From contig CAWANJ010000001.1 of assembly GCA_963783385.1 (NCBI GenBank), forward strand, positions 320,001 through 384,000: 64,000 nt of DNA. Reading direction: 5' to 3'. This document shows, one piece after another, positions 45,919 through 58,310 of the stretch. The notes beneath the pieces are model-generated. The model was not told the DNA's origin and did no database searches. It worked only from the letters and a program-made list of their open reading frames with translations. Within the stretch, counting starts at the first letter, position 1, and each line of letters begins with the position of its first letter. The stretch is from an uncultured Gemmatimonadales bacterium (GTDB lineage: Bacteria > Gemmatimonadota > Gemmatimonadetes > Palauibacterales > Palauibacteraceae). A program made the translations under genes and the position numbers.

Positions 45919-46296
45919 ATGAGCCGATCCGAGGCCCGGCACTACCGCTGGGATGACATGCCGCGCGAGCCGGTCACGGACGTGATCAGCCGTCGCCTGG
46001 TCACGGGCGAGCGCATGATGCTGGCCCACGTATACCTGGACCGGGGCGCGGTCGTGCCGAAGCACGAGCACGACAACGAGCAGATCACCTACATCCTCGA
46101 GGGGGCGCTCCGCTTCTGGCTGGGCGAGGACGGCCAGGAGGAGATCGTGGTCCGCGCCGGGGAGGTGCTCCACATCCCCTCCCACCTCCCGCACAAGGCG
46201 GAGGCGCTCGAGGACACGCTGGACGTCGACGTGTTCTGCCCTCCGCGCCAGGATTGGCTGGACGGGACGGACTCCTACTTCCACGAACAGGGGTGA
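45919..46296 (+). CDS. Cupin-domain protein
   Basis: PKHEHDNEQITYILEG and IPSHLPH metal-binding motifs. Confidence 0.9.
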   Translation: MSRSEARHYRWDDMPREPVTDVISRRLVTGERMMLAHVYLDRGAVVPKHEHDNEQITYILEGALRFWLGEDGQEEIVVRAGEVLHIPSHLPHKAEALEDTLDVDVFCPPRQDWLDGTDSYFHEQG

Positions 46297-46363
46297 GTCG
46301 GGCCCACGACCCGAGCGTGCCCCCGAAAATCCGCTGCAAGACGACCTGCCGGGAGAGGACCGC

Positions 46364-47140
46364 ATGGACCTGGGATTGAGCGAACGCGTGGCCCTCGTGG
46401 GCGGCTCGAGCACCGGCCTCGGACGGGCGGTGGCCCGAGAGCTGGCCGCCGAGGGCGCCGACGTGGTGCTGTGCGCCCGCGGAGCGGAGCAGCTCGAGGA
46501 GACGCGGGCCGCCATCGAGGCGGAGACGGGCGCCGACGTGGCCGCCGTGACCGCGGACCTGTCCACCCTCGAGGGCGTGGAAGCCGCCGCGACGGGAGCG
46601 GAGCGCGCCTTCGGGCGGGTCGACGTCCTGGTCACCAACACGGGCGGGCCGCCGGCCGGCTCGTTCGAGACGCACGACCTGGACACGTGGCGCTCGGCCG
46701 AGCGGCTCCTGCTCGAGAGCGTCGTGGAGCTGGTGCGGCGCGTCCTCCCGGGCATGAAGGAGCGCCGCTGGGGCCGGATCATCACGATCACCTCCATCGC
46801 GGTCAAGCAGCCCATCCAGAACCTCATCCTCTCGAACAGCCTGCGGGCGGCGGTCACGGGGCTGGCCCGCACGCTGGCCAACGACGTCGCCTCGCTCGGG
46901 ATCACGGTGAACAACGTGATGCCCGGCTACACGCGCACCCAGCGTCTCGAGGAGCTGTCGGGCGGTGCGCCGGGCGACGAGGGGGCCTTCGAGCACTGGA
47001 CGAGGGAGATTCCGATGGGCCGCATCGGAAGACCCCGCGAGCTGGCCGCGCTCGTGGCCTTCCTGGCCTCGGAGCGAGCCAGCTACATCACGGGCACCTC
47101 GGTGCCCGTGGATGGCGGCTGGATCCGGTCGCTGCTGTAG
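46364..47140 (+). CDS. SDR-family oxidoreductase
   Basis: GSSTGLG, NTGGP, SNSLR (no catalytic Tyr), PGYTRT, VDGG. Confidence 0.9.
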   Translation: MDLGLSERVALVGGSSTGLGRAVARELAAEGADVVLCARGAEQLEETRAAIEAETGADVAAVTADLSTLEGVEAAATGAERAFGRVDVLVTNTGGPPAGSFETHDLDTWRSAERLLLESVVELVRRVLPGMKERRWGRIITITSIAVKQPIQNLILSNSLRAAVTGLARTLANDVASLGITVNNVMPGYTRTQRLEELSGGAPGDEGAFEHWTREIPMGRIGRPRELAALVAFLASERASYITGTSVPVDGGWIRSLL

Positions 47141-47166
47141 CGGAACGAACCGAGTGGAGAGCTGAC

Positions 47167-48117
47167 ATGCCTGCGTCGCAGTTCACGGAGACAGAGTGGA
47201 TCTGGAAGGACGGGACGTTCATCCGGTGGGAGGACGCCCGCCTGCACGTCCTGGCCAGCGCCGTGCAGTTCGGCGCCTCGGTGTTCGAGGGGATCCGCTG
47301 TTACGAGACCCCCGAGGGACCGGCGGTCTTCCGGCTCTCGGACCATATCCGCCGCCTGATCGACTCGTGCCGGGTGTACCGTATGGTCCCCGACCACTCG
47401 CCGGAGGCGCTGGAGGAGGCGTGCGGCGCGGCCGTGGCGCGCAACGAGCTCGGCTCGTGCTACATACGGCCCACGGTGCTGAGAGGCTACGGGGCCGCCG
47501 GCCTCGACACCCGCTCCAGCCCGATCGAGACCTACATCCCCACGTGGCCGTGGGGAACCTACCTGGGGGAAGGCGCCCTCGAGAGGGGCGTCGACGTGTG
47601 CGTCTCGAGCTGGCACCGCCCGCACCCGAACACGTTTCCGGCCAGCGCCAAGGCCGGGGGCCACTACACGAACGCCACCCTGATCAAGCTCGAGGCCATC
47701 GCCAACGGCTTCTCCGAGGGGATCGCGCTCGGACCGGGCGGCCTGGTCAGCGAGGGGAGTGGGCAGAACCTGTTCCTGGTGCGCGACGGGGTCCTCGTCA
47801 CGCCGGACCTGGACGGAACCTCGCTACGCGGGATCACCCGGGACGCCGTCCTCACCCTGGCGGGCGACCTCGAGATCCCGGTGCGGGAGCAGCCGGTGCC
47901 CCGCGAGACCCTCTACTCGGCGGACGAGCTCTTCTTCACGGGCACGGCCGCCGAGGTGACGCCGGTTCGCAGCGTGGACCGGATCACGATCGGGGAGGGC
48001 GTCGCCGGGCCGGTGACCCGGGAGATCCAGGCGCGGTTCATGGCCATCGTGCACGGTGAGGCACCGGACGAGCACGGCTGGCTCACCCCCGTCGAGGCCC
48101 TGGCGAGCGCCGGCTAG
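47167..48117 (+). CDS. ilvE: Branched-chain amino acid aminotransferase (class IV)
   Basis: VFEGIRCY, YIRP, AKAGGHY, EGSGQNLF, LRGITR, GTAAEVTPV. Confidence 0.88.
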   Translation: MPASQFTETEWIWKDGTFIRWEDARLHVLASAVQFGASVFEGIRCYETPEGPAVFRLSDHIRRLIDSCRVYRMVPDHSPEALEEACGAAVARNELGSCYIRPTVLRGYGAAGLDTRSSPIETYIPTWPWGTYLGEGALERGVDVCVSSWHRPHPNTFPASAKAGGHYTNATLIKLEAIANGFSEGIALGPGGLVSEGSGQNLFLVRDGVLVTPDLDGTSLRGITRDAVLTLAGDLEIPVREQPVPRETLYSADELFFTGTAAEVTPVRSVDRITIGEGVAGPVTREIQARFMAIVHGEAPDEHGWLTPVEALASAG

Positions 48118-48185: not shown

Positions 48186-49829
48186 TCACTCCCGGCCGAG
48201 CTCCCCGGCCCTGTGACGCATGGCCCCCCGGTCCACCTTCCCCAGGTGCGTGCGGGGCAGATCCTCCACCAGCACGACCCGCCTCGGGTACTTGTAGGCC
48301 GCCAGCCGCTCCCGGACCCAGGCCTGGAGCGCCTCGGCGAGATCCCCTTCGCCACCGCCCGAGGGTCGCCCCGCCCCGGCGTCGGTTCCACCGGCCGCGC
48401 CCGACCCCGCGCGCTCGGGCACCACGAAGGCCCACGGCTTGGTGAGGCCGGCCGCGTTGGCGGCCCCCACCACCACCGCCTCGCGCACGGCGGGGTGCTC
48501 CACGAGGCAGTCCTCCACCTCCTTGGGGGAGAGCCACTTTCCCGACACCTTGAGCATGTCGTCTCCACGGCCACAGTAGACGACGTACCCGTCCTCGTCC
48601 TCGCGGACCATGTCGCTGGAGGCGTACCACTCGCCGCGGAAGGCGCGCCGGGATTCGTCCATGCGCTGCCAGTAGCCGATGGCACGTGAGGCGCCCCGCA
48701 CCCACAGCCATCCCGTCTCGCCCCGGGGCAGCTGGCGACCCTCCTCGTCACACACCCGGACCTCGTAGCCGGGCACCGCCTTCCCCAGGGTGCCGGGCCG
48801 CACGTCGCCTCTCCGGTTGGAGAGGAAGATGTGCCACATCTCGGCCGTGCCGAGGCCGTCCAGCAGCTCGACGCCGAAGGTCCCGTCCCAGCGCCGGTGG
48901 AGCTCCACGGGCAGCGCCTCCCCGGCGGACGTCGACACCCGGAGGGACGACAGGTCGCGCGTGGAAGCCGACGGATCGTTCACCAGGCGGTTCACCATGG
49001 TGGGCACGTTGACGAGAACGGTGGGGCGGTGGCGCTCGATGAGGCCGAACAGGCGCTCTGCGGTGCAGCGCTCCGGGAACAGGACCGAGGTGGCGCCGAC
49101 CGCGAACGGGAAGAACAGGTTGGCTCCCATCGCGTAGCCGAAGTAGAGCTTGGGCACCGACAGGGTGACGTCCTCGGGCCCGTAGCCGATCACGTGCCCG
49201 CCGTAGCAGGCGGAGGCGTTGGCGTAGGAGGTGTGTGTCTGGACCGCCGCCTTGGGGCGGCCCGTGGTGCCACCCGAGAACAGCCAGATGGCCGCGTCGT
49301 CCCGGTGCGTGGGGAAGCTGTCGAATTCCTCCGGCGCCGAGGCCAGCGCCTCGTCGAAGGCCGGGTCCCCGACCACCAGCACGGCCTTGAGGAAATCGCG
49401 GCCCCCGCGCGCGGCCCGCTCCCTCGCCTCGAGGAAGGTCCCGACGCGATCCCGGTCGGTCACCAGCGCGGCTGCCCGCGTGTACTCGATGAAGTACTCG
49501 ATCTCCTCGGCCGACAGGCCCGGGTTCACCAGGGCCGCCACCGCCCCCGCCTTGAGCACGGCGAACAGGGTTGCCACCAGCTCGACCCCATCCGGGAGGG
49601 CCAGGAGAACGCGCTGCTCGGGCTCGACTCCGGCATCCCGGAGGCGGTGGGCGAACCGGTTGGCCAGGGCCTGGACCTCCGCGTACGTCCAGCGCCCCGT
49701 GTCGGTGACCACGGCCGTGCGCTCCCCGCGCCCCTCCCGCACGCGGTCGTCCAGGAAGTAGTCGGCGATGTTGAAGCGCTCGGGCGGCACGAACGGCACG
49801 TCGGTCGGGTCGGAAGCGGCTCCAGGCAT
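48186..49829 (-). CDS. Benzoate-CoA ligase family enzyme, probable 2-aminobenzoate-CoA ligase
   Basis: FSGGTTGRPK, KLYFGY, SAGEALP, DGLGTAEMWHIF, GRGDDMLKVSG, LPRTHLGK; divergent from the abm-like operon. Confidence 0.88.
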   Translation of the reverse strand: MPGAASDPTDVPFVPPERFNIADYFLDDRVREGRGERTAVVTDTGRWTYAEVQALANRFAHRLRDAGVEPEQRVLLALPDGVELVATLFAVLKAGAVAALVNPGLSAEEIEYFIEYTRAAALVTDRDRVGTFLEARERAARGGRDFLKAVLVVGDPAFDEALASAPEEFDSFPTHRDDAAIWLFSGGTTGRPKAAVQTHTSYANASACYGGHVIGYGPEDVTLSVPKLYFGYAMGANLFFPFAVGATSVLFPERCTAERLFGLIERHRPTVLVNVPTMVNRLVNDPSASTRDLSSLRVSTSAGEALPVELHRRWDGTFGVELLDGLGTAEMWHIFLSNRRGDVRPGTLGKAVPGYEVRVCDEEGRQLPRGETGWLWVRGASRAIGYWQRMDESRRAFRGEWYASSDMVREDEDGYVVYCGRGDDMLKVSGKWLSPKEVEDCLVEHPAVREAVVVGAANAAGLTKPWAFVVPERAGSGAAGGTDAGAGRPSGGGEGDLAEALQAWVRERLAAYKYPRRVVLVEDLPRTHLGKVDRGAMRHRAGELGRE

Positions 49830-49938: not shown

Positions 49939-50712
49939 ATGCCCGTACGGGAGATGTCGGAGTGCACGTGGGAGGAGCTCGGATCCCTGGATCCGGAGCG
50001 CACGGTCGCCCTCCTGCCCATCGGCGCGGTGGAGGCGCACGGTCCCCACCTTCCGCTGTCCACCGACATCATCATGGCGGAGGCGATGGTCGCGGAGGGA
50101 GCTCGCCGCCTGGCGGACCGGGGGTTCGAGGTGCTCGTCCTGCCGCCCCTCGCCTACACGGCCGCCGGCTTCGCGGCCGGCTTCCCGGGCACGATCGACA
50201 TCCGGCCGGAGACGGTGACCGCCCTCGTCGTGGACGTGGCCGCCAGCCTGGCCCGCCACGGCGTGGGGGCCCTGGGCTTCGCCAGTCCGCACGTGGACCC
50301 CACGCACCGGGCGGCGATGCGGGCGGCGCGGGACGAGATCGTCCGGCGCGGCCTCCTCGTCCCGGTCTTCCCCGACCTCGCCTCCCGGCGATGGGCCCCG
50401 CGGCTGGGGGCGGAGTTCCTGTCCGGCGCCTGCCACGCGGGCCGATTCGAGGGCTCGGTCGTCCTGGCGGCGCGCCCCGACCTGGTCCGGGAAGCGGTCC
50501 GACGCTCCCTGCCGCCCGTCGATGCCTCGCTGTCCGACGCGATCCGGGACGGGAAGACGAGCTTCCGGGAAGCGGGGGCGGCGCGGGCCTACTGCGGCGC
50601 ACCGGCGGAGGCCACGGCCGAGGAGGGCCGGGAGACGATCGGGACGCTGGGGGCGATCCTCGAGGAGGCCGTGCTGGCCGAGCTCCCCGAGGGCGCGGAG
50701 AGGGGCGCGTGA
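49939..50712 (+). CDS. Creatininase/ArfB-family metallo-amidohydrolase
   Basis: AGGAGG RBS; LLPIGAVEAHGPHLPLSTD, FPGTI, HAGRFEGS, ATAEEG. Confidence 0.88.
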   Translation: MPVREMSECTWEELGSLDPERTVALLPIGAVEAHGPHLPLSTDIIMAEAMVAEGARRLADRGFEVLVLPPLAYTAAGFAAGFPGTIDIRPETVTALVVDVAASLARHGVGALGFASPHVDPTHRAAMRAARDEIVRRGLLVPVFPDLASRRWAPRLGAEFLSGACHAGRFEGSVVLAARPDLVREAVRRSLPPVDASLSDAIRDGKTSFREAGAARAYCGAPAEATAEEGRETIGTLGAILEEAVLAELPEGAERGA

Positions 50713-51485
50713 GCCTCGCGGGCCGCACCGCCGTCGTCACCGGTGGCGGCCGCGGCATCGGTGCGGCCGCCGTCCGCGCCCTGTCGGAGGCCGGGGCAGC
50801 CGTCGTCGTCAGCGCGCGCACGGCCGGCGAGATCGAGGCCGTGGCCGACGACATCCGCTCCGCCGGCGGACGTGCCGTGGCCGTGCCCTGCGACGTCTCG
50901 GACCCCGACGCGGTCGCGGCCCTCGGCGAGGCGGCGACCAGCGAGTTCGGTCCCGTGGACATCCTGGTGCACGGGGCCGGGATCGCCTCCTCCGCCCCCA
51001 TCGGGCAGCTCGAGCTGGAAGAGTGGCGGCGGGTGCTCGAGGTGAACGCCACCGGCGCCTTCCTCTGCACCCGGGCCTTCCTGCCCGGCATGGCCGAGCG
51101 CGGCTGGGGCCGGGTCGTGTACGTGGCTTCGGTGGCCGGGCTCGCCGGGGCGCGGTACATCGCCGCTTACTCCGCCTCCAAGCACGCCGTGGTGGGGCTG
51201 ACCCGCTGCGCCGCGGCCGAGGTGGCCGGCCGGGGGGTCACCGTGAACGCCCTGTGCCCCGGCTACGTGGACACGGCCATGACACGGGACTCGGTGGCCA
51301 ACATCGCGGCCACCACGGGCCGAACGCCGGAGGAGGCCCTCGGGATCCTCCGCTCCGACAATCCCCAGGGTCGTCTCATCGAGCCCGGCGAGGTGGCGGA
51401 CGCGGCCGTGTGGCTGTGCGGGGAGGGAGCGCGCGGCGTGAACGGACAGGCCCTGGTGATCGACGGAGGAGGACTCCTGGCGTGA
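50709..51485 (+). CDS. SDR oxidoreductase (3-hydroxyacyl-CoA dehydrogenase-like, abm cluster)
   Basis: TGGGRGIG, YSASK, CPGYVDT; GTGA coupling. Confidence 0.9.
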   Translation: MSLAGRTAVVTGGGRGIGAAAVRALSEAGAAVVVSARTAGEIEAVADDIRSAGGRAVAVPCDVSDPDAVAALGEAATSEFGPVDILVHGAGIASSAPIGQLELEEWRRVLEVNATGAFLCTRAFLPGMAERGWGRVVYVASVAGLAGARYIAAYSASKHAVVGLTRCAAAEVAGRGVTVNALCPGYVDTAMTRDSVANIAATTGRTPEEALGILRSDNPQGRLIEPGEVADAAVWLCGEGARGVNGQALVIDGGGLLA

Positions 51486-51892
51486 GTTACCGGATCGTGA
51501 ACCCCGAGGCCCTCGGGGAGCCCCGCGGCTGGAGCAACGGGCTCCTGGCCCCGGCCGGGGGCCGGCTGCTGCTGGTGGCCGGCCAGACGGACCGCGACGC
51601 CGACGGGAGCATCCGGGGCGCGACCTTCGTGGAGCAGTTCCGGGGCGCCCTCTCCAACGTCCTGGCCGTGGTTCGCGAGGCAGGCGGCGCGGCCGGCCAC
51701 ATCGGGAGGCTCACCGTGTACGTCACGGACCTGGCCGCCTACCGGGCCTCGCGCCGGCCGCTGGGCCAGGCGTACCGGGACCTCATGGGCCGACACTACC
51801 CGGCCATGGCCGTGCTCGAGGTGGCCGGCCTGGTGGACGAGGGCGCCGTGGTCGAGATCGAAGCCACGGCCGTCCTGCCGCCCGACGCGTGA
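51482..51892 (+). CDS. RidA/YjgF-family protein
   Basis: NPEALGEPRGWSNG, VAGQ, YPAM, VEIEATA; GTGA coupling. Confidence 0.9.
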   Translation: MSYRIVNPEALGEPRGWSNGLLAPAGGRLLLVAGQTDRDADGSIRGATFVEQFRGALSNVLAVVREAGGAAGHIGRLTVYVTDLAAYRASRRPLGQAYRDLMGRHYPAMAVLEVAGLVDEGAVVEIEATAVLPPDA

Positions 51893-51928: not shown

Positions 51929-52729
51929 ATGCCCATTGAGCTCACGTCGTTCCTCTACGAGCACGACGAGGCCACCTCGGTGGCCACCATCACCCTGAAC
52001 CGGCCCGAACGTCTCAACGCACTCACCTTCGAGGTCTACGAGGAGCTCCGGGACACCTTCCGCGCCCTGGACACCGAGCCGGGCGTGCGCGCCGTGCTCC
52101 TGACGGGCCGCGGACGCGGCTTCTGCTCCGGCGGCGATGTGGAGGACATCATCGGCCGCCTGTTCGAACGCGATTACCAGGGGCTCCTCGCCTTCACGCG
52201 GCTCACCTGCGACCTCATCGCCTCGATCCGGGCCTGCCGCCGCCCGGTGGTGGCGGCCCTCAACGGGACCGTGGCCGGGGCCGGGGCGGTGATCGCCTCG
52301 GCCTGCGACCTGAGGATCGCGTCGGAGACGGCGAAGATCGCCTTCCTGTTCGTGCGGGTCGGGCTCTCGGGGGCCGACATGGGCGCCTCCTGGCTCCTCC
52401 CGCGCATCGTCGGGATGGGCCGGGCGACCGAGCTCCTCATGACCGGCGACTTCATCGACGCGGCCGAGGCGCACCGGATCGGCCTCTACAACCGCGTCGT
52501 CCCGCCCGACGCCGTGGTGGCGGAGGCCCGGGCCCTCGCGGAGAAGCTGGCCCGCGGCCCGTCCTTCGCGCTCGAGGTCACCAAGGACGCTCTCAACCGG
52601 GAGGCCACCCTGGACCTGGACAGCGCCCTGGAGGCCGAGGCGAAGGTGCAGGCGGTGTGCATGCAGAACCCCAACTTCCGCGAGTCCTACGAGGCCTTCG
52701 TGGAGAAGCGCGACCCGGCCTTCGAATGA
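51929..52729 (+). CDS. Enoyl-CoA hydratase/isomerase family protein
   Basis: ITLNRPERLNAL, FCSGGD, GAGAVIA, GLSGADMG, KRDPAF. Confidence 0.92.
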   Translation: MPIELTSFLYEHDEATSVATITLNRPERLNALTFEVYEELRDTFRALDTEPGVRAVLLTGRGRGFCSGGDVEDIIGRLFERDYQGLLAFTRLTCDLIASIRACRRPVVAALNGTVAGAGAVIASACDLRIASETAKIAFLFVRVGLSGADMGASWLLPRIVGMGRATELLMTGDFIDAAEAHRIGLYNRVVPPDAVVAEARALAEKLARGPSFALEVTKDALNREATLDLDSALEAEAKVQAVCMQNPNFRESYEAFVEKRDPAFE

Positions 52730-53955
52730 CGGACGCTTCGCGCGCCGGGCCGGACCGGAACGACCGGGGCTTCGGTCCGGACCCCGGGCCGGTGCGAGCC
52801 TTCCTGGACGAGCGCCACCTGGAGCTGGCGGGACGGGCCGCGGCGTTCGGCGCGGAGGTCGTCGCCGCGCGCCCCGAACCCGCCGATGACGCGGCGGCCC
52901 GGCACGAGGCGCGCGCCCTGGTCGACCTCCTGGGGGAGGAAGGGTGGCTCGGCCCGATCGCCGCCCAGGACTTCCGCGCGTGCTGCCTGGTGCGGGAGGC
53001 GCTGGCCGCATCCTCACCGCTGGCGGACGCCGTGTTCGCCCTCCAGGCGCTCGCCGCCACGCCGCTGGTGCTGGAGGGAGAGGGGGCGGCGCGCGAGCGG
53101 TGGCTGGGTCCGGCGGTCCGCGGCCGGGCCATGGGGGCGTTCGCCATGACCGAGCCGGAGGCGGGCTCGGACGTGGCCGCCCTGTCCACGCGCGCGGTCC
53201 GCGACGGCGACGCCTACGTGCTCGACGGCCGCAAGACGTTCATCTCCAACGCCGGCATCGCCGATTTCTACGTGACCTTCGCGGTGACCGACCCGGACGC
53301 CGGGCGGCGAGGCGTGTCGGCCTTCGCCGTCCCGGCGGACGCGCCGGGCCTCTTTTTCGTGGGACCCCAGGTCCTCTCCTCGCCCCACCCGCTGGGCGAG
53401 ATCGCGCTGGAGGGGTGCCGGGTGCCGGCCTCGGCCCGGATCGGGGAGGAGGGACGCGGATTCGGGCTCGGGATGGCCACGCTCGACCGCCTGCGCCCCA
53501 CGGTAGCGGCCGCCGCGTGCGGGATGGCCGCCCGGGCGCTGCAGGAAGCCCTGGGCCACGCCGTGACTCGCCGCCAGTTCGGGAAGCCGCTGGCCGACTT
53601 CCAGCTCGTGCAGGAGAAGCTGGCCCGTATGGCCACCGAGCTCACGGCGGCGCGGCTGCTCACCTACCGGGCCGCCTGGGAGCGGGACCGGGGCGCCGAG
53701 CGCACGTCGGTCGAGTCCGCCATGGCCAAGGCGCACGCCACGGAGGCCGCCCAGCGCATCGTGGACGAGGCGGTGCAGATCCTGGGCGGCCGGGGCGTTC
53801 TGGCCGCGCACCCCGTGGACCGCCTGTACCGGTCGGTGCGGGCCCTCCGGATCTACGAGGGGACGACCGAGATCCAGCGGCTCATCATCGCCGGGCACCT
53901 GATCGAGGCCGCGCGGGAGGCCGCGGCGCCGGGCGGCGCGGAGTCGTCGGCATGA
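52726..53955 (+). CDS. Acyl-CoA dehydrogenase
   Basis: [44 protein letters not shown]. Confidence 0.94.
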
Positions 53956-56232
53956 GGATCGTGTGCGTGGGGGGCGGCCCCGCCGGCCTGTTCTTCTCGA
54001 TCCTCATGCGCCTGCGGGACGACGCGCACGAGGTCACGGTCCTGGAGCGGAACCCTCCCGGGGCGACCTACGGCTTCGGGGTCGTGTTCTCGGACGCCAC
54101 CCTGGAGGAGATCGCGGCCGGCGACCCCCCCAGCTACGCGGAGATCACGCGCCACTTCCACCACTGGGACGACATCGACATCCACTACCGGGGGGAGCTC
54201 CTGCGCTCCACCGGGCACGGGTTCAGCGGGCTGGCGCGCTCGACGCTGCTCGAGATCCTCTCGGCGCGGGCCCGGGAGCTCGGCGTGGACCTCCAGCACG
54301 GCGTCGACGTGACCGACCCCTCGCCCTGGGAGGACGCCGATCTCCTGGTGGCCGCCGACGGCGTGAACAGCACGGTGCGGGAGCTCCATCCCGAGCGCTA
54401 CGAGCCCCGGATCGACCTTCGCCCCAACCGGTTCGTGTGGCTCGGAACGACCCGTCCGTTCCCCGCCTTCACCTTCTACTTCCGGGAGGACGAGCACGGC
54501 CTGTGGCGCGTGCACGCCTACCAGTACGAGCCCGCGGAGGGCGGCGAGGCGCGCTCGACCTTCATCGTCGAGGCGCGCGAGGAGACCTGGGCAGCGACGG
54601 GGCTGCCCGAGGACGACGAGGAGGCGGCGGCCGCCTTCTGCGCCGACCTGTTCGAGGAGGAGCTGGAGGGACACCCGCTCGTCCTGAACCGCTCGATCTG
54701 GCGCCGCTTCCCGACGCTCCGCACCGGGCGGTGGTGGCACGGAAACACGGTGCTCATCGGGGACGCCGCCCACACCGCCCACTTCTCGGTGGGCTCGGGC
54801 ACCCGGATGGCGATGCTGGACGCCATCGCGCTGCGTGACGCGCTCGCGGCGCACGACGGAGAGCCTTGCCGGGCCCTGCCGGCCTACGAGGAGGCGCGGC
54901 GCCCGGAGGTCGAGAGCCTGCAGCGCGCCGCACGGGCCAGCCTGGAGTGGTTCGAGGGCACCGAGCGCTACATGGACGACGAGCCCGAGCAGTTCGCCTT
55001 CAGCCTCCTCACGCGCAGCCTCCGCATCACGCACCAGGACCTGCGCATCCGGGACCCGGTCTTCACCGCGGGGGTGGACCGGCGGTTCGCGGAGCGGGCG
55101 GCCGGGCAGGCGGAGGTGGCGGTGCCGACCGACCCGCCCCCTCCCCCGATGTTCACCCCCTTCCGCCTGCGCGGGCTGCTGCTCCAGAACCGCGTGGTGG
55201 TCTCCGCCATGTGCCAGTACTCGGCGGCGGACGGGACGCCGGACGACTGGCACCTCGTCCACCTGGGGAGCCGGGCCGTGGGGGGTGCGGGGCTCGTGAT
55301 GAGCGAGATGACCAACGTGAGCGCCCGGGGGCGGATCTCGCCGGGGTGCACGGGCATGTACCTCCCCGAGCACGTTCCGGCCTGGAAGCGGATCGTCGAC
55401 TTCGTGCACGACCAGAGCCGGGCCAAGATCGGCCTCCAGCTCGGACACGCGGGCCGCAAGGGCTCCACGAGGCTCTCCTGGGAGGGGGACGTGGAACCGC
55501 TCGAGGAGGGCGGCTGGGACGTCCTGGCACCGTCCGCGCTTCCCTGGAAGCCCGAGAACCCCGTCCCACGGCCCATGGATCGCCAGGACATGGACCGGGT
55601 GCGGGAGGAGTACGTGCGGGCCGCCGAGAATGGCCATGGAGGCGGGCTTCGACCTCCTCGAGATCCACTTCGCCCACGGTTACCTGCTGGCCAGCTTCAT
55701 CTCCCCACTCACCAACACGCGCGAGGACGAGTACGGCGGGCCGCTGGAGAACCGGATGCGCTACCCGCTGGAGGTGCTGCGCGCCGTGCGGGCCGTGTGG
55801 CCCGAGGACCGGCCCATTTCCGTGCGGATCTCGGCGGTCGATTGGGCGCCGGGAGGCATGACGGCCGACGACGCGGTGGAGGTGGCCCGCAGGGTCGCCG
55901 GGGCGGGCGGCGATATCGTGGACGTGTCGGCCGGACAGACGGTCCCGTGGCAGCAGCCGCGCTACGGGCGACAGTTCCAGACACCCTTCGCCGACCGGAT
56001 CCGGCACGAGGTGGGGATCCCGACCATGGCGGTCGGGAACATCTCCTCGTTCATGGACGTGAACACGATCCTCGCGGCGGGCCGAGCGGACCTGTGCTGC
56101 CTGGCGCGGGCCCACCTGTGGGAGCCGTACTGGACGCGCCACGCCGCGTACGCCCTCGGGTACGACCTGCCGTGGCCGAAGCCATACTCGACGCTGGACG
56201 ACTATACCCCCCGCTTCGAATGGGGCTACTAG
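53952..56232 (+). CDS. abmA: 2-aminobenzoyl-CoA monooxygenase/reductase (bifunctional salicylyl-CoA 5-hydroxylase type), frameshift at about 55630
   Basis: [37 protein letters not shown] fused to an OYE domain ([16 protein letters not shown], then HFAHGYLL in the next frame); removing one A at 55629-55630 restores [11 protein letters not shown]. Confidence 0.9.
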
Positions 56233-56234
56233 AC

Positions 56235-57092
56235 GTGGACCGAACCGAGCCTGCCGACAGCACCCGGGCGAGCTCCGGGAGCGACGAGACGCCGCCCGCG
56301 CCGGCCGACGAATCGCGCTACCTCACCTACGCCGGCTATCTCCACCTGGACGAGCTGCTCTCCCTGCAGCGACGCCGGGCTGGAGAGCACGACGAGATGC
56401 TGTTCATCATCATCCACCAGGTGTACGAGCTCTGGTTCAAGGAGCTGCTGCACGAGCTGGACTACGTGGAGCAGCTCCTGGGCCGGGACGACCTGCCGAC
56501 GGCGCTGCACACCATGAAGCGCATCCTCACGGTCCTTAAGGTCATGGTCGCGCAGATCGACATCCTGGAGACGATGACGCCCCGGGAGTTCCTCACCTTC
56601 CGGAACCGCCTCGAGGCGGCGAGCGGTCTAGAGTCCTTCCAGTTCCGGGAGCTCGAGTTCGCCCTCGGCATCAAGCGCCCCGGCATCCTGGAGCGCTACC
56701 CGGAGGGCAGCGAGCCGCGCTCTCGCCTCCAGCAGCGCCTGGAGCGACCCACCCTGTGGGATGCCTTCCTCGAACACGTGAACCGCTCCGGGTTCCCCGT
56801 TCCGAGATCCGCGCTGGAACGGGAGGTGAGCCGGCCGGTCGAGGCCTCGCCCCAGGTGCAGGACGTCCTGGTTCGCGTGTACGCCGAGTCCCCGGCGCTC
56901 GCCCAGCTGTGCGAACGGCTGGTGGATCTGGACGAGGGACTCCAGGAGTGGCGGTACCGACACGTGAAGATGGTCGAGCGCACGATCGGCGCGAAGCGGG
57001 GCACGGGAGGCACGGAGGGCGCCGGCTACCTGCGGACGACGCTGTCCCGACCCGTGTTCCCCGACCTGTGGGAGATCCGGACCCGCCTGTGA
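56235..57092 (+). CDS. kynA: Tryptophan 2,3-dioxygenase
   Basis: [61 protein letters not shown]; GTG start 2 nt after the abmA stop. Confidence 0.95.
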
Positions 57093-57109
57093 GACAGGCA
57101 CCGGCCCCG

Positions 57110-58310
57110 GTGAAGCCGGAGGATCTGTACGCCGATCCCAACGGCCTGGCGCCCGACTACGGCCGCTTCCGCGTCGCCGACCGGCTCCTGCTCACAGGCC
57201 ACTCCCACCAGGCCTGGCCGGACCGGGGCTTCGAGGGGCAGGAGCGGGCCTGGCTGGACGCGGCCGAGTACGTGGACGGGAAGTGGGACCGCGCCTTCGG
57301 GCGTGCCCGACGCGTGCGCGAGGGCTTCGCTGGCTTGCTCGGAGGCGCGGAGAGCGGCGAGATCGCCCTCGGGGCCAGCACCCACGACCTCGTGGTCCGC
57401 TTCCTCTCGGCTCTTCCCCTGGCGGAACGGCCCCGCCTGGTGACGACGGACGGCGAGTTCCACACCCTGCGGCGCCAGCTATGCCGCCTCGAGGAGGAAG
57501 GGATCGAGGTCGTGCGGGTCGCGTCCCACCCCGCGGTCTCGGCGGGCGCGCGGGTCGCCGAGGCGGTGGACGACCGGACCGCCGCCGCCTTCGTGTCGGC
57601 CGTGTTCTTCGAGACGGCCCATATCGTCGGGGGCCTTCGGGAGGCGGCACGGGCATGCCGGGAGCACGGGGCGCTCCTCCTGGTGGACGCCTACCACGCC
57701 CTCGACGCCGTGCCCTTCTCGCTGGCGGGGATCGAAGACGCCTACGTGGTGGGAGGGGGCTACAAGTACTGCCAGCTGGGCGAAGGGAACTGCTTCCTGC
57801 GTCTCCCGCCCGACTGCCGGCTCCGCCCCGTGGTCACGGGCTGGTTCGCGGAGTTCGAGGCGCTGATCGAGCCCGGCGCGAGGCACCGCGTCGCCTACCC
57901 GGACGGGCCGGGTCGCTTCGCGGGCAGCACCTACGACCCGACCAGCCACTACCGTGCCGCCGAGGTGTTCGACTTCTTCGCGGAGCGCGGCCTCACGCCG
58001 ACCTGCTGCGGGAGGTGAGCCGCCACCAGGTCGAGCCTCCTGGCCCGGGGCTTCGACGCCCTGGACCTGGATCCGGCGCTGGCGGACAGGGACCGCGACG
58101 TGCCCCTGGAGCGGGTCGGGCGGCTTCCTGGCGCTCGCGAGTCCCCGGGCCGCCGAGCTCCAGCGGCTCCTGAGCGAGCGGGGCGTGAGGACGGACCACC
58201 GGAGGGGCCGCCTCCGGCTCGGGCCGGCTCCCTACCTCTCGGACCGCCAGCTCCGTGATGCGCTGGCGGCGCTGGGAGAGTCCGTCCTCGCACTGGAGGC
58301 CGCCGGCTGA
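57110..58310 (+). CDS. kynU: Kynureninase (atypical subfamily), three single-base indels near the 3' end
   Basis: Class V PLP motifs DAYH, GGGYKYCQLGEG, TGWF, RLGPAPY; follows kynA; correcting indels at about 58000, 58036 and 58119 gives a continuous protein. Confidence 0.8.

What the first reader, a model, noticed from the sequence alone, without database searches (positions are those of the whole stretch)
49939..50712. Creatininase-family enzyme as a candidate non-orthologous kynurenine formamidase filling the kynB gap
Seen: the cluster has TDO and kynureninase but no cyclase-family KynB (no HxGTHxD motif) and no alpha/beta-hydrolase formamidase. Its first gene is a creatininase-fold protein with the metal-ligand motifs (ExH, D, H, HAGxxE) and a changed loop (SPHVD in place of the usual NGHGGN). 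Known: the family member ArfB removes an N-formyl group from a formamidopyrimidine. Inference: it hydrolyses N-formylkynurenine or N-formylanthranilate, which would be a further formamidase class. A role in the poorly defined lower abm pathway is the alternative.
Basis: partly seen in the sequence, partly recalled or inferred. Interest (0 to 1): 0.8.

Follow-up and report, generated by a model that had tools for sequence, protein, structure and literature searches.

The report
Creatininase-fold gene in tryptophan-anthranilate cluster
A metal-dependent hydrolase of unknown function sits in a gene cluster that breaks down tryptophan through anthranilate, and it is a plausible but unproven candidate for the formyl-removing enzyme that these bacteria appear to lack.

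Summary
ORF 49939-50712 (+) is an intact creatininase-family protein (PF02633, E 4.9e-52) with all metal ligands. It is the first gene of the operon creat-SDR-RidA-enoyl-CoA hydratase-acyl-CoA dehydrogenase-AbmA-TDO-kynureninase-like. The cluster holds no cyclase-type or alpha/beta-hydrolase formamidase. The genome's only cyclase-family protein is an isatin hydrolase ortholog, not KynB.

The subfamily is large, spans several phyla and carries only generic names. It occurs almost only in genomes that have both TDO and an AbmA-like gene (49 of 50 each). None of 50 such genomes has KynB.

The function stays ambiguous. Evidence for a formamidase or upper-pathway role:
- In genomes where the pathway is split, the gene stays with TDO, kynureninase and the CoA ligase.
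- Three genomes without AbmA keep it.
- Many otherwise identical abm clusters lack it.

Evidence for a lower-pathway role:
- It is fused to the SDR or to RidA in some lineages.
- It is almost absent from TDO-bearing genomes without AbmA (2 of 48).
- In Acidobacteriota it heads the lower-pathway operon.

The kynB gap is general in these phyla, so it is weak evidence. My odds are arylformamidase about 0.45, lower-pathway hydrolase about 0.27. AbmA and the kynureninase-like gene are frameshifted in this assembly.

The parts
48186..49829 (-). aryl-CoA ligase, benzoate-CoA ligase family (presumed anthranilate-CoA ligase), transcribed divergently from creat
   Evidence: TIGR02262 468.8 bits against a cut-off of 375; AMP-binding domains. 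Homologues lie within 300 nt of creat in 44 of 54 loci with full flanks.
49939..50712 (+). creatininase-family metal hydrolase (the finding, 'creat')
   Evidence: PF02633 E 4.9e-52. Below the cut-offs of MftE, creatininase and IolN. Ligands E32 H34 D43 H118 H166 E171. Model pLDDT 95, TM 0.73-0.74 to 1q3k/3no4/3lub.
50709..51485 (+). short-chain dehydrogenase/reductase; its GTG start overlaps the creat stop (GTGA)
   Evidence: PF00106 E 1.2e-61; 3-hydroxybutyrate dehydrogenase-like, 245 bits against a cut-off of 258; overlap read. Fused to creat in two clades of metagenomic proteins.
51482..51892 (+). RidA/YjgF-family protein; its GTG start overlaps the SDR stop
   Evidence: PF01042 E 6.8e-16 on this frame; translation. 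Fused to creat in P0129.
51929..52729 (+). enoyl-CoA hydratase family protein
   Evidence: NF006107 379 bits against a cut-off of 330; PF00378 E 3.2e-62.
52723..53955 (+). acyl-CoA dehydrogenase
   Evidence: PF00441, PF02770 and PF02771. Start at ATG 52723 read from the translation.
53946..56232 (+). AbmA-like bifunctional aryl-CoA monooxygenase/reductase, split into two frames by one extra base near 55629
   Evidence: NF006101 positions 1-564 (768 bits) and 558-747 (314 bits) lie in different frames. Uncompensated +1 relative to the 88-90% identical locus L011.
56220..57092 (+). tryptophan 2,3-dioxygenase
   Evidence: PF03301 E 2.6e-60; TIGR03036 286 bits, below the cut-off of 390.7; start found.
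57068..58310 (+). divergent kynureninase-like PLP enzyme. The N-terminal part ends at a stop at 58016-18; the C-terminal part is in another frame (57954-58310).
   Evidence: Best PDB match is kynureninase 1qz9, 34.6 bits. The C-terminal piece matches relatives at 46-75% identity. Indels relative to L011. The start is uncertain: GTG 57068, 57089 or 57110.

Best explanation
The gene encodes an active binuclear-metal amidohydrolase of the creatininase fold. I think it most likely serves the upper part of a tryptophan -> N-formylkynurenine -> (kynurenine) -> anthranilate -> anthraniloyl-CoA route as an arylformamidase.

A metal-bound water or hydroxide would attack the formamide carbonyl of N-formylkynurenine, or of N-formylanthranilate if the divergent kynureninase-like enzyme acts first. 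This releases formate and the free arylamine that the neighbouring CoA ligase needs.

Shown: family membership, intact ligands, conserved synteny and the phyletic pattern. Inferred: the substrate, and therefore the step.
For: 1. Enzyme competence. PF02633 at 177 bits. All six metal and catalytic residues are aligned to creatininase and invariant in 40 of 40 homologues. The model is confident and has the creatininase fold.

2. A gap exists. The cluster has no formamidase candidate. The genome's only PF04199 protein is an isatin hydrolase ortholog.

3. Genome-level pattern. TDO is in 49 of 50 creat+ genomes and 42 of 42 creat+ Pseudonocardiaceae. KynB over the cut-off is in 0 of 50 (best 87 bits). 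KynB-like matches of 97 bits or more are in 0 of 42. Among creat- comparators with TDO, 5 of 50 (129 bits or more) and 4 of 80 have one. Raw Fisher test for 0 of 85 against 9 of 130 gives p = 0.013, not corrected for relatedness.

4. One comparator case. The one genome with a true KynB next to a kynureninase-like gene (G076) has an abm cluster without creat.

5. Split pathways. In Solirubrobacterales (L057, L079 against L160, L161) and in G374 and G420 (L184, L185), creat lies with TDO, the kynureninase-like gene and the CoA ligase. AbmA, ECH, RidA, ACAD and SDR lie elsewhere.

6. Genomes without AbmA. Three genomes with no AbmA keep creat beside TDO and the kynureninase-like gene: G049 and G404 and G442. 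Between the last two, creat has dN/dS 0.28, against 0.11 for TDO.

7. The lower pathway runs without it. 50 of 52 AbmA+ genomes in an even sample of Actinomycetota have no creat at E <= 1e-30. Locus L163 is the same operon with AbmA directly followed by the ligase. The other lower-pathway genes do not change.

8. Family chemistry (recalled, not tested here). ArfB removes a formyl group from an aryl-type formamide.
Against: - Long-lived in-frame fusions join creat to the lower-pathway SDR (two clades about 50% identical to each other: P0126/27 and P0128/30/31/32) and once to RidA (P0129).
- In the window, creat, SDR and RidA are translationally coupled.
- In Pseudonocardiaceae creat depends on AbmA: 40 of 74 AbmA+ TDO+ genomes have it, against 2 of 48 AbmA- TDO+ genomes. 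It is therefore not the general formamidase of TDO-kynureninase modules.
- In Acidobacteriota (L012-L014, L009) it heads a creat-SDR-RidA-ECH-ACAD operon, and in Dormibacterota it lies between AbmA and the ligase. In both, TDO and the kynureninase-like gene lie elsewhere.
- KynB is rare in these phyla with or without creat, so its absence says little.
- Relatives without creat show no displaced hydrolase beside TDO and the kynureninase-like gene. One exception is an alpha/beta hydrolase in L135.
- One of the two copies in the AbmA-less pair (G404) has Arg at ligand position E32.
- There are no biochemical data and nothing in print.
Confidence: 0.45

Rival explanations
1. Lower abm-pathway hydrolase. 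The enzyme acts on the AbmA product or its successor. [quoted passage not shown] It would work in sequence with RidA and the SDR.
For: - creat-SDR and creat-RidA fusions.
- GTGA start/stop overlaps link creat, SDR and RidA in the window.
- creat-SDR-RidA-ECH-ACAD operons lie apart from TDO in Acidobacteriota, and AbmA-creat-ligase-ECH-RidA-ACAD operons in Dormibacterota.
- Type-1 AbmA operons of Pseudonocardiaceae hold creat in 28 of 29 genomes. creat is found in 2 of 48 TDO+ genomes without AbmA.
- There is a weak family link to IolN (22 bits).
- A C7H8O4-CoA, read by its authors as cyclohexanedione-carboxyl-CoA, was seen in anthranilate-grown Arthrobacter (PMC3534580, passages read).
Against: - 50 of 52 AbmA+ Actinomycetota genomes and 34 of 74 AbmA+ TDO+ Pseudonocardiaceae lack creat, yet keep the same SDR, ECH, RidA and ACAD set, with no replacement gene seen.
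- Three genomes without AbmA keep creat, one pair of them under purifying selection.
- In split genomes of Solirubrobacterales and in G374 and G420 it sits in the TDO/ligase module, not the AbmA module.
- No ortholog was found on plasmids (best 37% identity).
Confidence: 0.27
2. Another amidase that feeds or protects the anthranilate-CoA ligase step. It might hydrolyse some other N-acyl-anthranilate, anthranilamide or a lactam that forms spontaneously from pathway intermediates. That would make it an accessory or repair enzyme.
For: - The ligase is the commonest and closest neighbour: present in 49 of 54 loci and adjacent in 44.
- Ligase-creat pairs stand alone in Nannocystis (L028). In Planctomycetota they lie with a thioesterase.
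- The patchy distribution fits an accessory role.
- An isatin hydrolase subfamily also associates with AbmA clusters (L088, L134, L160, L161). This shows that feeder amidohydrolases do join these clusters.
Against: - No specific substrate is indicated by any search.
- The near-perfect co-occurrence with TDO (49 of 50, 42 of 42) points to a tryptophan-derived substrate.
- Two loci hold only creat, TDO and the kynureninase-like gene, with no ligase beside them.
Confidence: 0.15
3. In this particular genome the gene is part of a decaying, non-functional cluster.
For: AbmA, the only full copy in the genome, and the kynureninase-like gene each carry a frameshift.
Against: - creat, SDR, RidA, ECH, ACAD, TDO and the ligase are intact.
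- The frameshifts could be assembly errors. Reads could not be consulted.
- This reading says nothing about what the subfamily does.
Confidence: 0.08

Closest known systems
ArfB (archaeal FAPy deformylase, creatininase family; recalled, no sequence or model compared here)
   Same: Same Pfam family. The chemistry I propose is the same: metal-dependent removal of a formyl group from an aromatic-type amine.
   Different: Different substrate and pathway (riboflavin/F420 biosynthesis against tryptophan catabolism). No ArfB model appeared among the NCBIfam matches at E <= 0.001, so kinship within the family is untested.
Creatininase (EC 3.5.2.10; PDB 1q3k, 1j2t)
   Same: Same fold (TM 0.73). The same six metal and catalytic residues.
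   Different: 22-26% identity. TIGR04448 gives 73 bits against a cut-off of 235. The loop is N-x-H-x-x-P rather than the creatininase loop. The genomic context has no creatine or creatinine genes.
KynB (cyclase-fold kynurenine formamidase, TIGR03035; PDB 4cob, 4co9)
   Same: This would be the same reaction if the best explanation is right. Like KynB, creat sits beside kynA- and kynU-type genes in some genomes.
   Different: Unrelated fold and family. creat is usually embedded in the anthranilate-CoA operon rather than in a kynA-kynB-kynU trio.
IolN, 3-dehydro-scyllo-inosose hydrolase (NF041098)
   Same: Same superfamily. It opens a cyclohexanedione ring by hydrolysis, which is the chemistry the lower-pathway rival needs.
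   Different: Only 22 bits against a cut-off of 245, over residues 21-106. Different pathway.
MftE, mycofactocin peptidase (TIGR03964)
   Same: Best-scoring named subfamily (101 bits).
   Different: Below the cut-off of 172. No mycofactocin genes were found among the cluster genes scanned.

Membership tests
Creatininase family (PF02633 / COG1402) | Profile match above the curated cut-off | tested here: met
   177.2 bits against 31.3, residues 8-242 on profile positions 2-235 of 238.
Creatininase family (PF02633 / COG1402) | Binuclear metal ligands (E, H, D, H, E) and the catalytic His | tested here: met
   E32, H34, D43, H118, H166 and E171 are aligned to the 1q3k residues and invariant in 40 of 40 homologues.
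Creatininase family (PF02633 / COG1402) | Fold | tested here: met
   AlphaFold model with pLDDT 95 and pTM 0.92. Foldseek TM 0.73-0.74 to 1q3k, 3no4 and 3lub, E about 1e-13.
Creatininase proper (TIGR04448) | Equivalog score at or above the cut-off | tested here: not met
   73.4 bits against 235.
MftE (TIGR03964) | Equivalog score at or above the cut-off | tested here: not met
   101.4 bits against 172.
IolN (NF041098) | Equivalog score at or above the cut-off | tested here: not met
   22.4 bits against 245.
ArfB-type deformylase | Closer kinship to ArfB than to other family members | not tested
   No ArfB sequence or model was available from any call. The resemblance is recalled chemistry only.
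Kynurenine formamidase (function, EC 3.5.1.9) | Hydrolysis of N-formylkynurenine to kynurenine and formate | not testable with these tools
   Context and phyletic evidence only.
Kynurenine formamidase (function, EC 3.5.1.9) | Complementary distribution with known formamidases among genomes that have TDO | tested here: inconclusive
   KynB-like matches in 0 of 85 creat+ genomes against 9 of 130 creat- TDO+ genomes (raw p = 0.013). Most creat- genomes also lack KynB. Alpha/beta-hydrolase formamidases cannot be recognised by profile.
KynB / cyclase family (PF04199, TIGR03035) | Profile match | tested here: not met
   Pfam-A returned only PF02633 for this protein. In the genome search the creat region gave only a chance-level TIGR03035 match of 12.7 bits, E 0.155.

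The most novel reading that the evidence does not exclude
The creatininase-fold enzyme is a third, unrelated class of kynurenine-pathway formamidase that works at the junction with the CoA pathway. The divergent kynureninase-like enzyme would cleave N-formylkynurenine directly to N-formylanthranilate plus alanine. creat would then deformylate N-formylanthranilate to hand anthranilate to the adjacent CoA ligase. That would be a re-ordered kynurenine route in Actinomycetota, Gemmatimonadota, Acidobacteriota, Dormibacterota and Planctomycetota.
Probability: 0.15. Interest if true: 0.8.

Novelty: new variant of a known kind. Interest (0 to 1): 0.55.

Why it matters
More than 3000 database proteins of this subfamily are named only 'creatinine amidohydrolase' or 'creatininase family protein'. 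They sit in what appears to be the main tryptophan and anthranilate catabolic cluster of several soil and water phyla.

A formamidase would fill a missing-gene step: TDO and a kynureninase-like gene are present without KynB in almost all genomes examined here. It would also add a new fold to that reaction.

A lower-pathway hydrolase would instead supply a step of the 2-aminobenzoyl-CoA route. As far as I recall, that route has not been worked out beyond the AbmA product.

Either result is directly testable with one purified protein and two or three substrates.

Tried and rejected
- **Complex prediction.** Complex prediction of creat with the SDR (alignments A1 and A2) gave no answer, score 0.00. 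It carries no weight either way.
- **Reads.** The look-up of sequencing runs was unreachable five times, so the two frameshifts could not be checked against reads.
- **Literature.** Searches for 'creatininase' with '2-aminobenzoyl-CoA' (0 papers), 'creatininase' with 'kynurenine formamidase' (1 unrelated paper) and 'creatinine amidohydrolase' with 'anthranilate' (1 unrelated paper) found nothing relevant. A search on kynB and non-orthologous terms listed 15 papers, none on this family. I read passages of one of them, PMC5391158. The Azoarcus evansii abm paper was not held, so what I say of its gene content is recalled.
- **Plasmids.** A tblastn search found no ortholog (314 records, best 37% identity).
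- **ESM Atlas.** It gave generic names only.
- **ORF clustering.** Single-linkage clustering of ORFs from the 80 loci merged families, because stop-to-stop ORFs are long in high-GC DNA. I replaced it with tblastn maps.
- **Search for a displaced hydrolase.** I looked beside TDO and the kynureninase-like gene in 20 creat- Pseudonocardiaceae loci. One region was mistyped and missed its TDO. No recurrent hydrolase was found, only a weak alpha/beta-hydrolase hit in L167.
- **Rejected readings.** creat is not a true creatininase, MftE or IolN (cut-offs not met). The contig-9 cyclase is not KynB; it is an isatin hydrolase ortholog. P0124 and P0133 are not true fusions; they are frame artefacts.

Full report
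**What is there**

The window has 72% G+C. Codon-position G+C marks a run of plus-strand genes from 49939 to about 58310, transcribed divergently from a minus-strand gene at 48186-49829. Profile scans name them as follows:
- benzoate-CoA-ligase-family ligase (TIGR02262, 469 bits, over its cut-off);
- the creatininase-family ORF 49939-50712 (PF02633, E 4.9e-52);
- an SDR;
- a RidA/YjgF protein;
- an enoyl-CoA hydratase (NF006107, over its cut-off);
- an acyl-CoA dehydrogenase;
- a bifunctional AbmA-like aryl-CoA monooxygenase/reductase (NF006101);
- tryptophan 2,3-dioxygenase;
- a divergent kynureninase-like PLP enzyme, whose best solved relative is kynureninase 1qz9 at 34.6 bits.

The creat stop overlaps the SDR start, and the SDR stop overlaps the RidA start, each as GTGA. 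The next gene on the far side is msrA. No cyclase-family or alpha/beta-hydrolase gene lies in the cluster.

**The protein**

It aligns to creatininase 1q3k with E32, H34, D43, H118, H166 and E171 on the metal and catalytic positions. These residues are invariant in 40 of 40 homologues of 54-83% identity. They are at least 97% conserved in a wider set of 113 that includes actinobacterial orthologs.

The model is confident (pLDDT 95). It matches only creatininase and two structural-genomics relatives, at TM 0.73-0.74. It falls below the NCBIfam cut-offs for MftE (101 against 172), creatininase (73 against 235) and IolN (22 against 245). It is therefore an uncharacterised subfamily of a known fold.

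The homologue search found 3356 proteins with E <= 0.001 among 8000 scored candidates. The 120 listed are 56-100% identical and carry only generic names. The ESM Atlas adds nothing.

**Is there a kynB gap?**

In the window's genome there is one PF04199 match. It has the HxGTHxD motif but scores 26 bits on the KynB equivalog, whose cut-off is 223. It scores 279 bits against solved isatin hydrolases and 27-29 bits against solved KynB. So no KynB ortholog was found in a genome estimated 92% complete. Alpha/beta-hydrolase formamidases cannot be excluded by any profile I have.

**Context elsewhere**

A scan of species-representative genomes found 185 stretches that encode relatives, and 80 loci were kept. 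I mapped them by tblastn with the window's cluster proteins. The typical actinobacterial arrangement is KynU< TDO< PaaX< | LLM> AbmA> creat> ligase> SDR> ECH> RidA> ACAD>.

Only 54 of the 80 loci have at least 7 kb on both sides; the other 26 were dropped from these counts. In the 54:

| Gene | Present in locus |
|---|---|
| CoA ligase | 49 (44 within 300 nt of creat) |
| ECH | 47 |
| SDR | 40 |
| ACAD | 38 |
| RidA | 36 |
| TDO | 33 |
| kynureninase-like | 29 |
| AbmA N-domain | 25 |

Whole-genome searches of 50 of the 80 host genomes (the tool takes at most 50) gave:
- TDO in 49 of 50;
- an AbmA-like gene at E <= 1e-60 in 49 of 50;
- KynB over its cut-off in 0 of 50, best score 87 bits.

**Controls**

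In an even sample of 301 Actinomycetota genomes, creat was found at E <= 1e-30 in 2 and an AbmA-like gene at E <= 1e-150 in 52. I then searched 51 of those 52 (all but G036, which was already in the creat+ set):
- 50 have TDO;
- 1 has KynB over the cut-off and 4 more score 129-156 bits.

TDO and AbmA therefore travel together in general. KynB is rare in general. Most such genomes have no creat.

Twenty AbmA loci without creat carry the same LLM, SDR, ECH, RidA and ACAD genes. They often have a phenylacetate-type ligase. One of them, L135, has an alpha/beta hydrolase directly after TDO and the kynureninase-like gene.

In an even sample of 151 Pseudonocardiaceae genomes, the counts (cross-tabulated) are:

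| Genome class | creat+ |
|---|---|
| AbmA+ TDO+ | 40 of 74 |
| AbmA+ TDO- | 0 of 4 |
| AbmA- TDO+ | 2 of 48 |
| AbmA- TDO- | 0 of 25 |

KynB-like matches of 97 bits or more occur in 5 of the 151 genomes, none of them creat+. Two partial matches (G426, G487) were counted as AbmA-.

**Evidence pointing to the upper pathway**

- Where the pathway is split between loci, creat stays with TDO, the kynureninase-like gene and the ligase. This holds in Solirubrobacterales (L057 and L079, against the AbmA modules L160 and L161) and in G374 and G420 (L184, L185).
- In Amycolatopsis it lies in KynU< TDO< PaaX< creat> ligase> SDR> ECH>, while AbmA, RidA and ACAD lie elsewhere (L158, L159).
- G049 has no AbmA, only OYE paralogs, yet keeps KynU-TDO-PaaX-creat-ligase (L072).
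- G404 and G442 have no AbmA N-domain. They keep only creat, TDO, the kynureninase-like gene and a Glu/Leu/Phe/Val-type dehydrogenase.
  - Their creat ORFs are intact, with dN/dS 0.28 against 0.11 for TDO.
  - G404 has Arg at position E32.
- L163 is the standard operon with creat missing between AbmA and the ligase.
- G076, the one genome with a true KynB beside a kynureninase-like gene, has an abm cluster without creat.

**Evidence pointing to the lower pathway**

- A search for longer proteins found genuine in-frame creat-SDR fusions in two clades about 50% identical to each other, and one creat-RidA fusion.
- In Acidobacteriota and one other lineage the operon is creat-SDR-RidA-ECH-ACAD, with TDO and the kynureninase-like gene at another locus (L154-L156).
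- In Dormibacterota creat lies between AbmA and the ligase, with TDO elsewhere.
- creat is nearly confined to AbmA+ genomes.
- Relatives without creat show no replacement hydrolase next to TDO and the kynureninase-like gene.

**Weighing**

No call measures activity. The family's known chemistry covers both readings: aryl-formamide hydrolysis in ArfB (recalled) and ring C-C hydrolysis in IolN.

I weigh three observations somewhat above the fusions and the dependence on AbmA: retention without AbmA, dispensability in otherwise identical abm operons, and placement in TDO modules. The dependence on AbmA can arise from physical linkage within the operon.

That gives about 0.45 for an arylformamidase, acting on N-formylkynurenine or, at the junction with the ligase, on N-formylanthranilate. 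It gives about 0.27 for a lower-pathway hydrolase and about 0.15 for another anthranilate-feeding or repair amidase. All counts are raw. The genomes are related, many are metagenome bins, and the search's first-look filter can miss genes.

**State of the cluster in this genome**

Against the 88-90% identical locus L011, the window has an uncompensated extra base at 55629 in AbmA. It also has a net +1 shift with a premature stop near 58002-58121 in the kynureninase-like gene. The genome search sees AbmA in two frames and finds no second full copy. It finds no canonical kynureninase. Reads could not be consulted, so error and decay remain undistinguished.

**Literature**

Nothing in the searchable library links this family to kynurenine or 2-aminobenzoyl-CoA metabolism. 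Passages of PMC3534580 report anthraniloyl-CoA, a C7H7NO3-CoA and a C7H8O4-CoA in anthranilate-grown Arthrobacter.

**Unpublished genomes**

- The counts include G068, G138, G224, G289 and G318.
- The counts include G354, G385, G408, G467 and G473.
- G354 is one of the 42 creat+ genomes.
- L118 (G138) is one of the 20 loci without creat. Three of its ORFs were scanned, and G138 is one of the four near-cut-off KynB-like genomes.
- Removing these genomes changes each count by at most those numbers and alters no conclusion.

Noticed in passing
window 55600-55660 (AbmA-like gene, 53946-56232): One extra base (GAGAATGG against GAG-ATGG in the 88-90% identical locus L011) splits the genome's only full AbmA-like gene into two frames. 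NF006101 positions 1-564 and 558-747 match in different frames.
   Followed up: partly
window 57990-58310 (kynureninase-like gene): Relative to L011 there is a net +1 shift between 58002 and 58121, and a stop at 58016-18. The C-terminal ~60-90 residues are readable only in the 57954-58310 frame. No canonical kynureninase (TIGR01814) is found elsewhere in the 92%-complete genome.
   Followed up: partly
L001 1447-2217 (own genome, contig 9:107045-107815) and L001 98-1429: The genome's only cyclase-family protein is an isatin hydrolase ortholog (PDB 5nmp, 279 bits). It follows directly after a ThDP-dependent enzyme, possibly an isatinate decarboxylase. The same hydrolase subfamily (59-67% identity) lies beside AbmA clusters in L088, L134, L160 and L161. 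This suggests an isatin/indole feeder into the anthranilate-CoA route.
   Followed up: partly
window 57068-58018 and relatives (e.g. L021 4224-5093, L154 9151-10329): The kynureninase-like gene belongs to a divergent subfamily that TIGR01814 misses and Pfam only partly catches. It is conserved at 58-69% identity across Actinomycetota, Gemmatimonadota and Acidobacteriota. A second, more distant type (26-32% identity) accompanies a second TDO type in Dormibacterota and some actinomycetes.
   Followed up: partly
own genome, contigs 6, 2 and 3 (L002, L004, L005): Three further creatininase-family paralogs lie in this 3.5 Mb genome. The contig-6 copy scores 246 bits. Their contexts were not examined.
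   Followed up: no
L021-L087 (e.g. L021 6942-7750): A luciferase-like (LLM-class) oxidoreductase gene precedes AbmA in most actinobacterial clusters, whether or not they hold creat (16 of 20 creat- loci). It is absent from the window's cluster. Its role in the pathway is unknown.
   Followed up: no
L118, L121, L127 (e.g. L127 6820-8244): AbmA clusters without creat often carry a phenylacetate-CoA-ligase-type enzyme (AMP-binding plus AMP-binding_C_2, about 440-470 aa) instead of the benzoate-type ligase that accompanies creat.
   Followed up: partly
window 46019-48117: The coding frame changes near 47100. An aminotransferase class IV domain occupies residues 271-502 of a 548-aa ORF. This may be two genes or a fusion of the PabB/PabC kind. 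It lies just upstream of the ligase.
   Followed up: no
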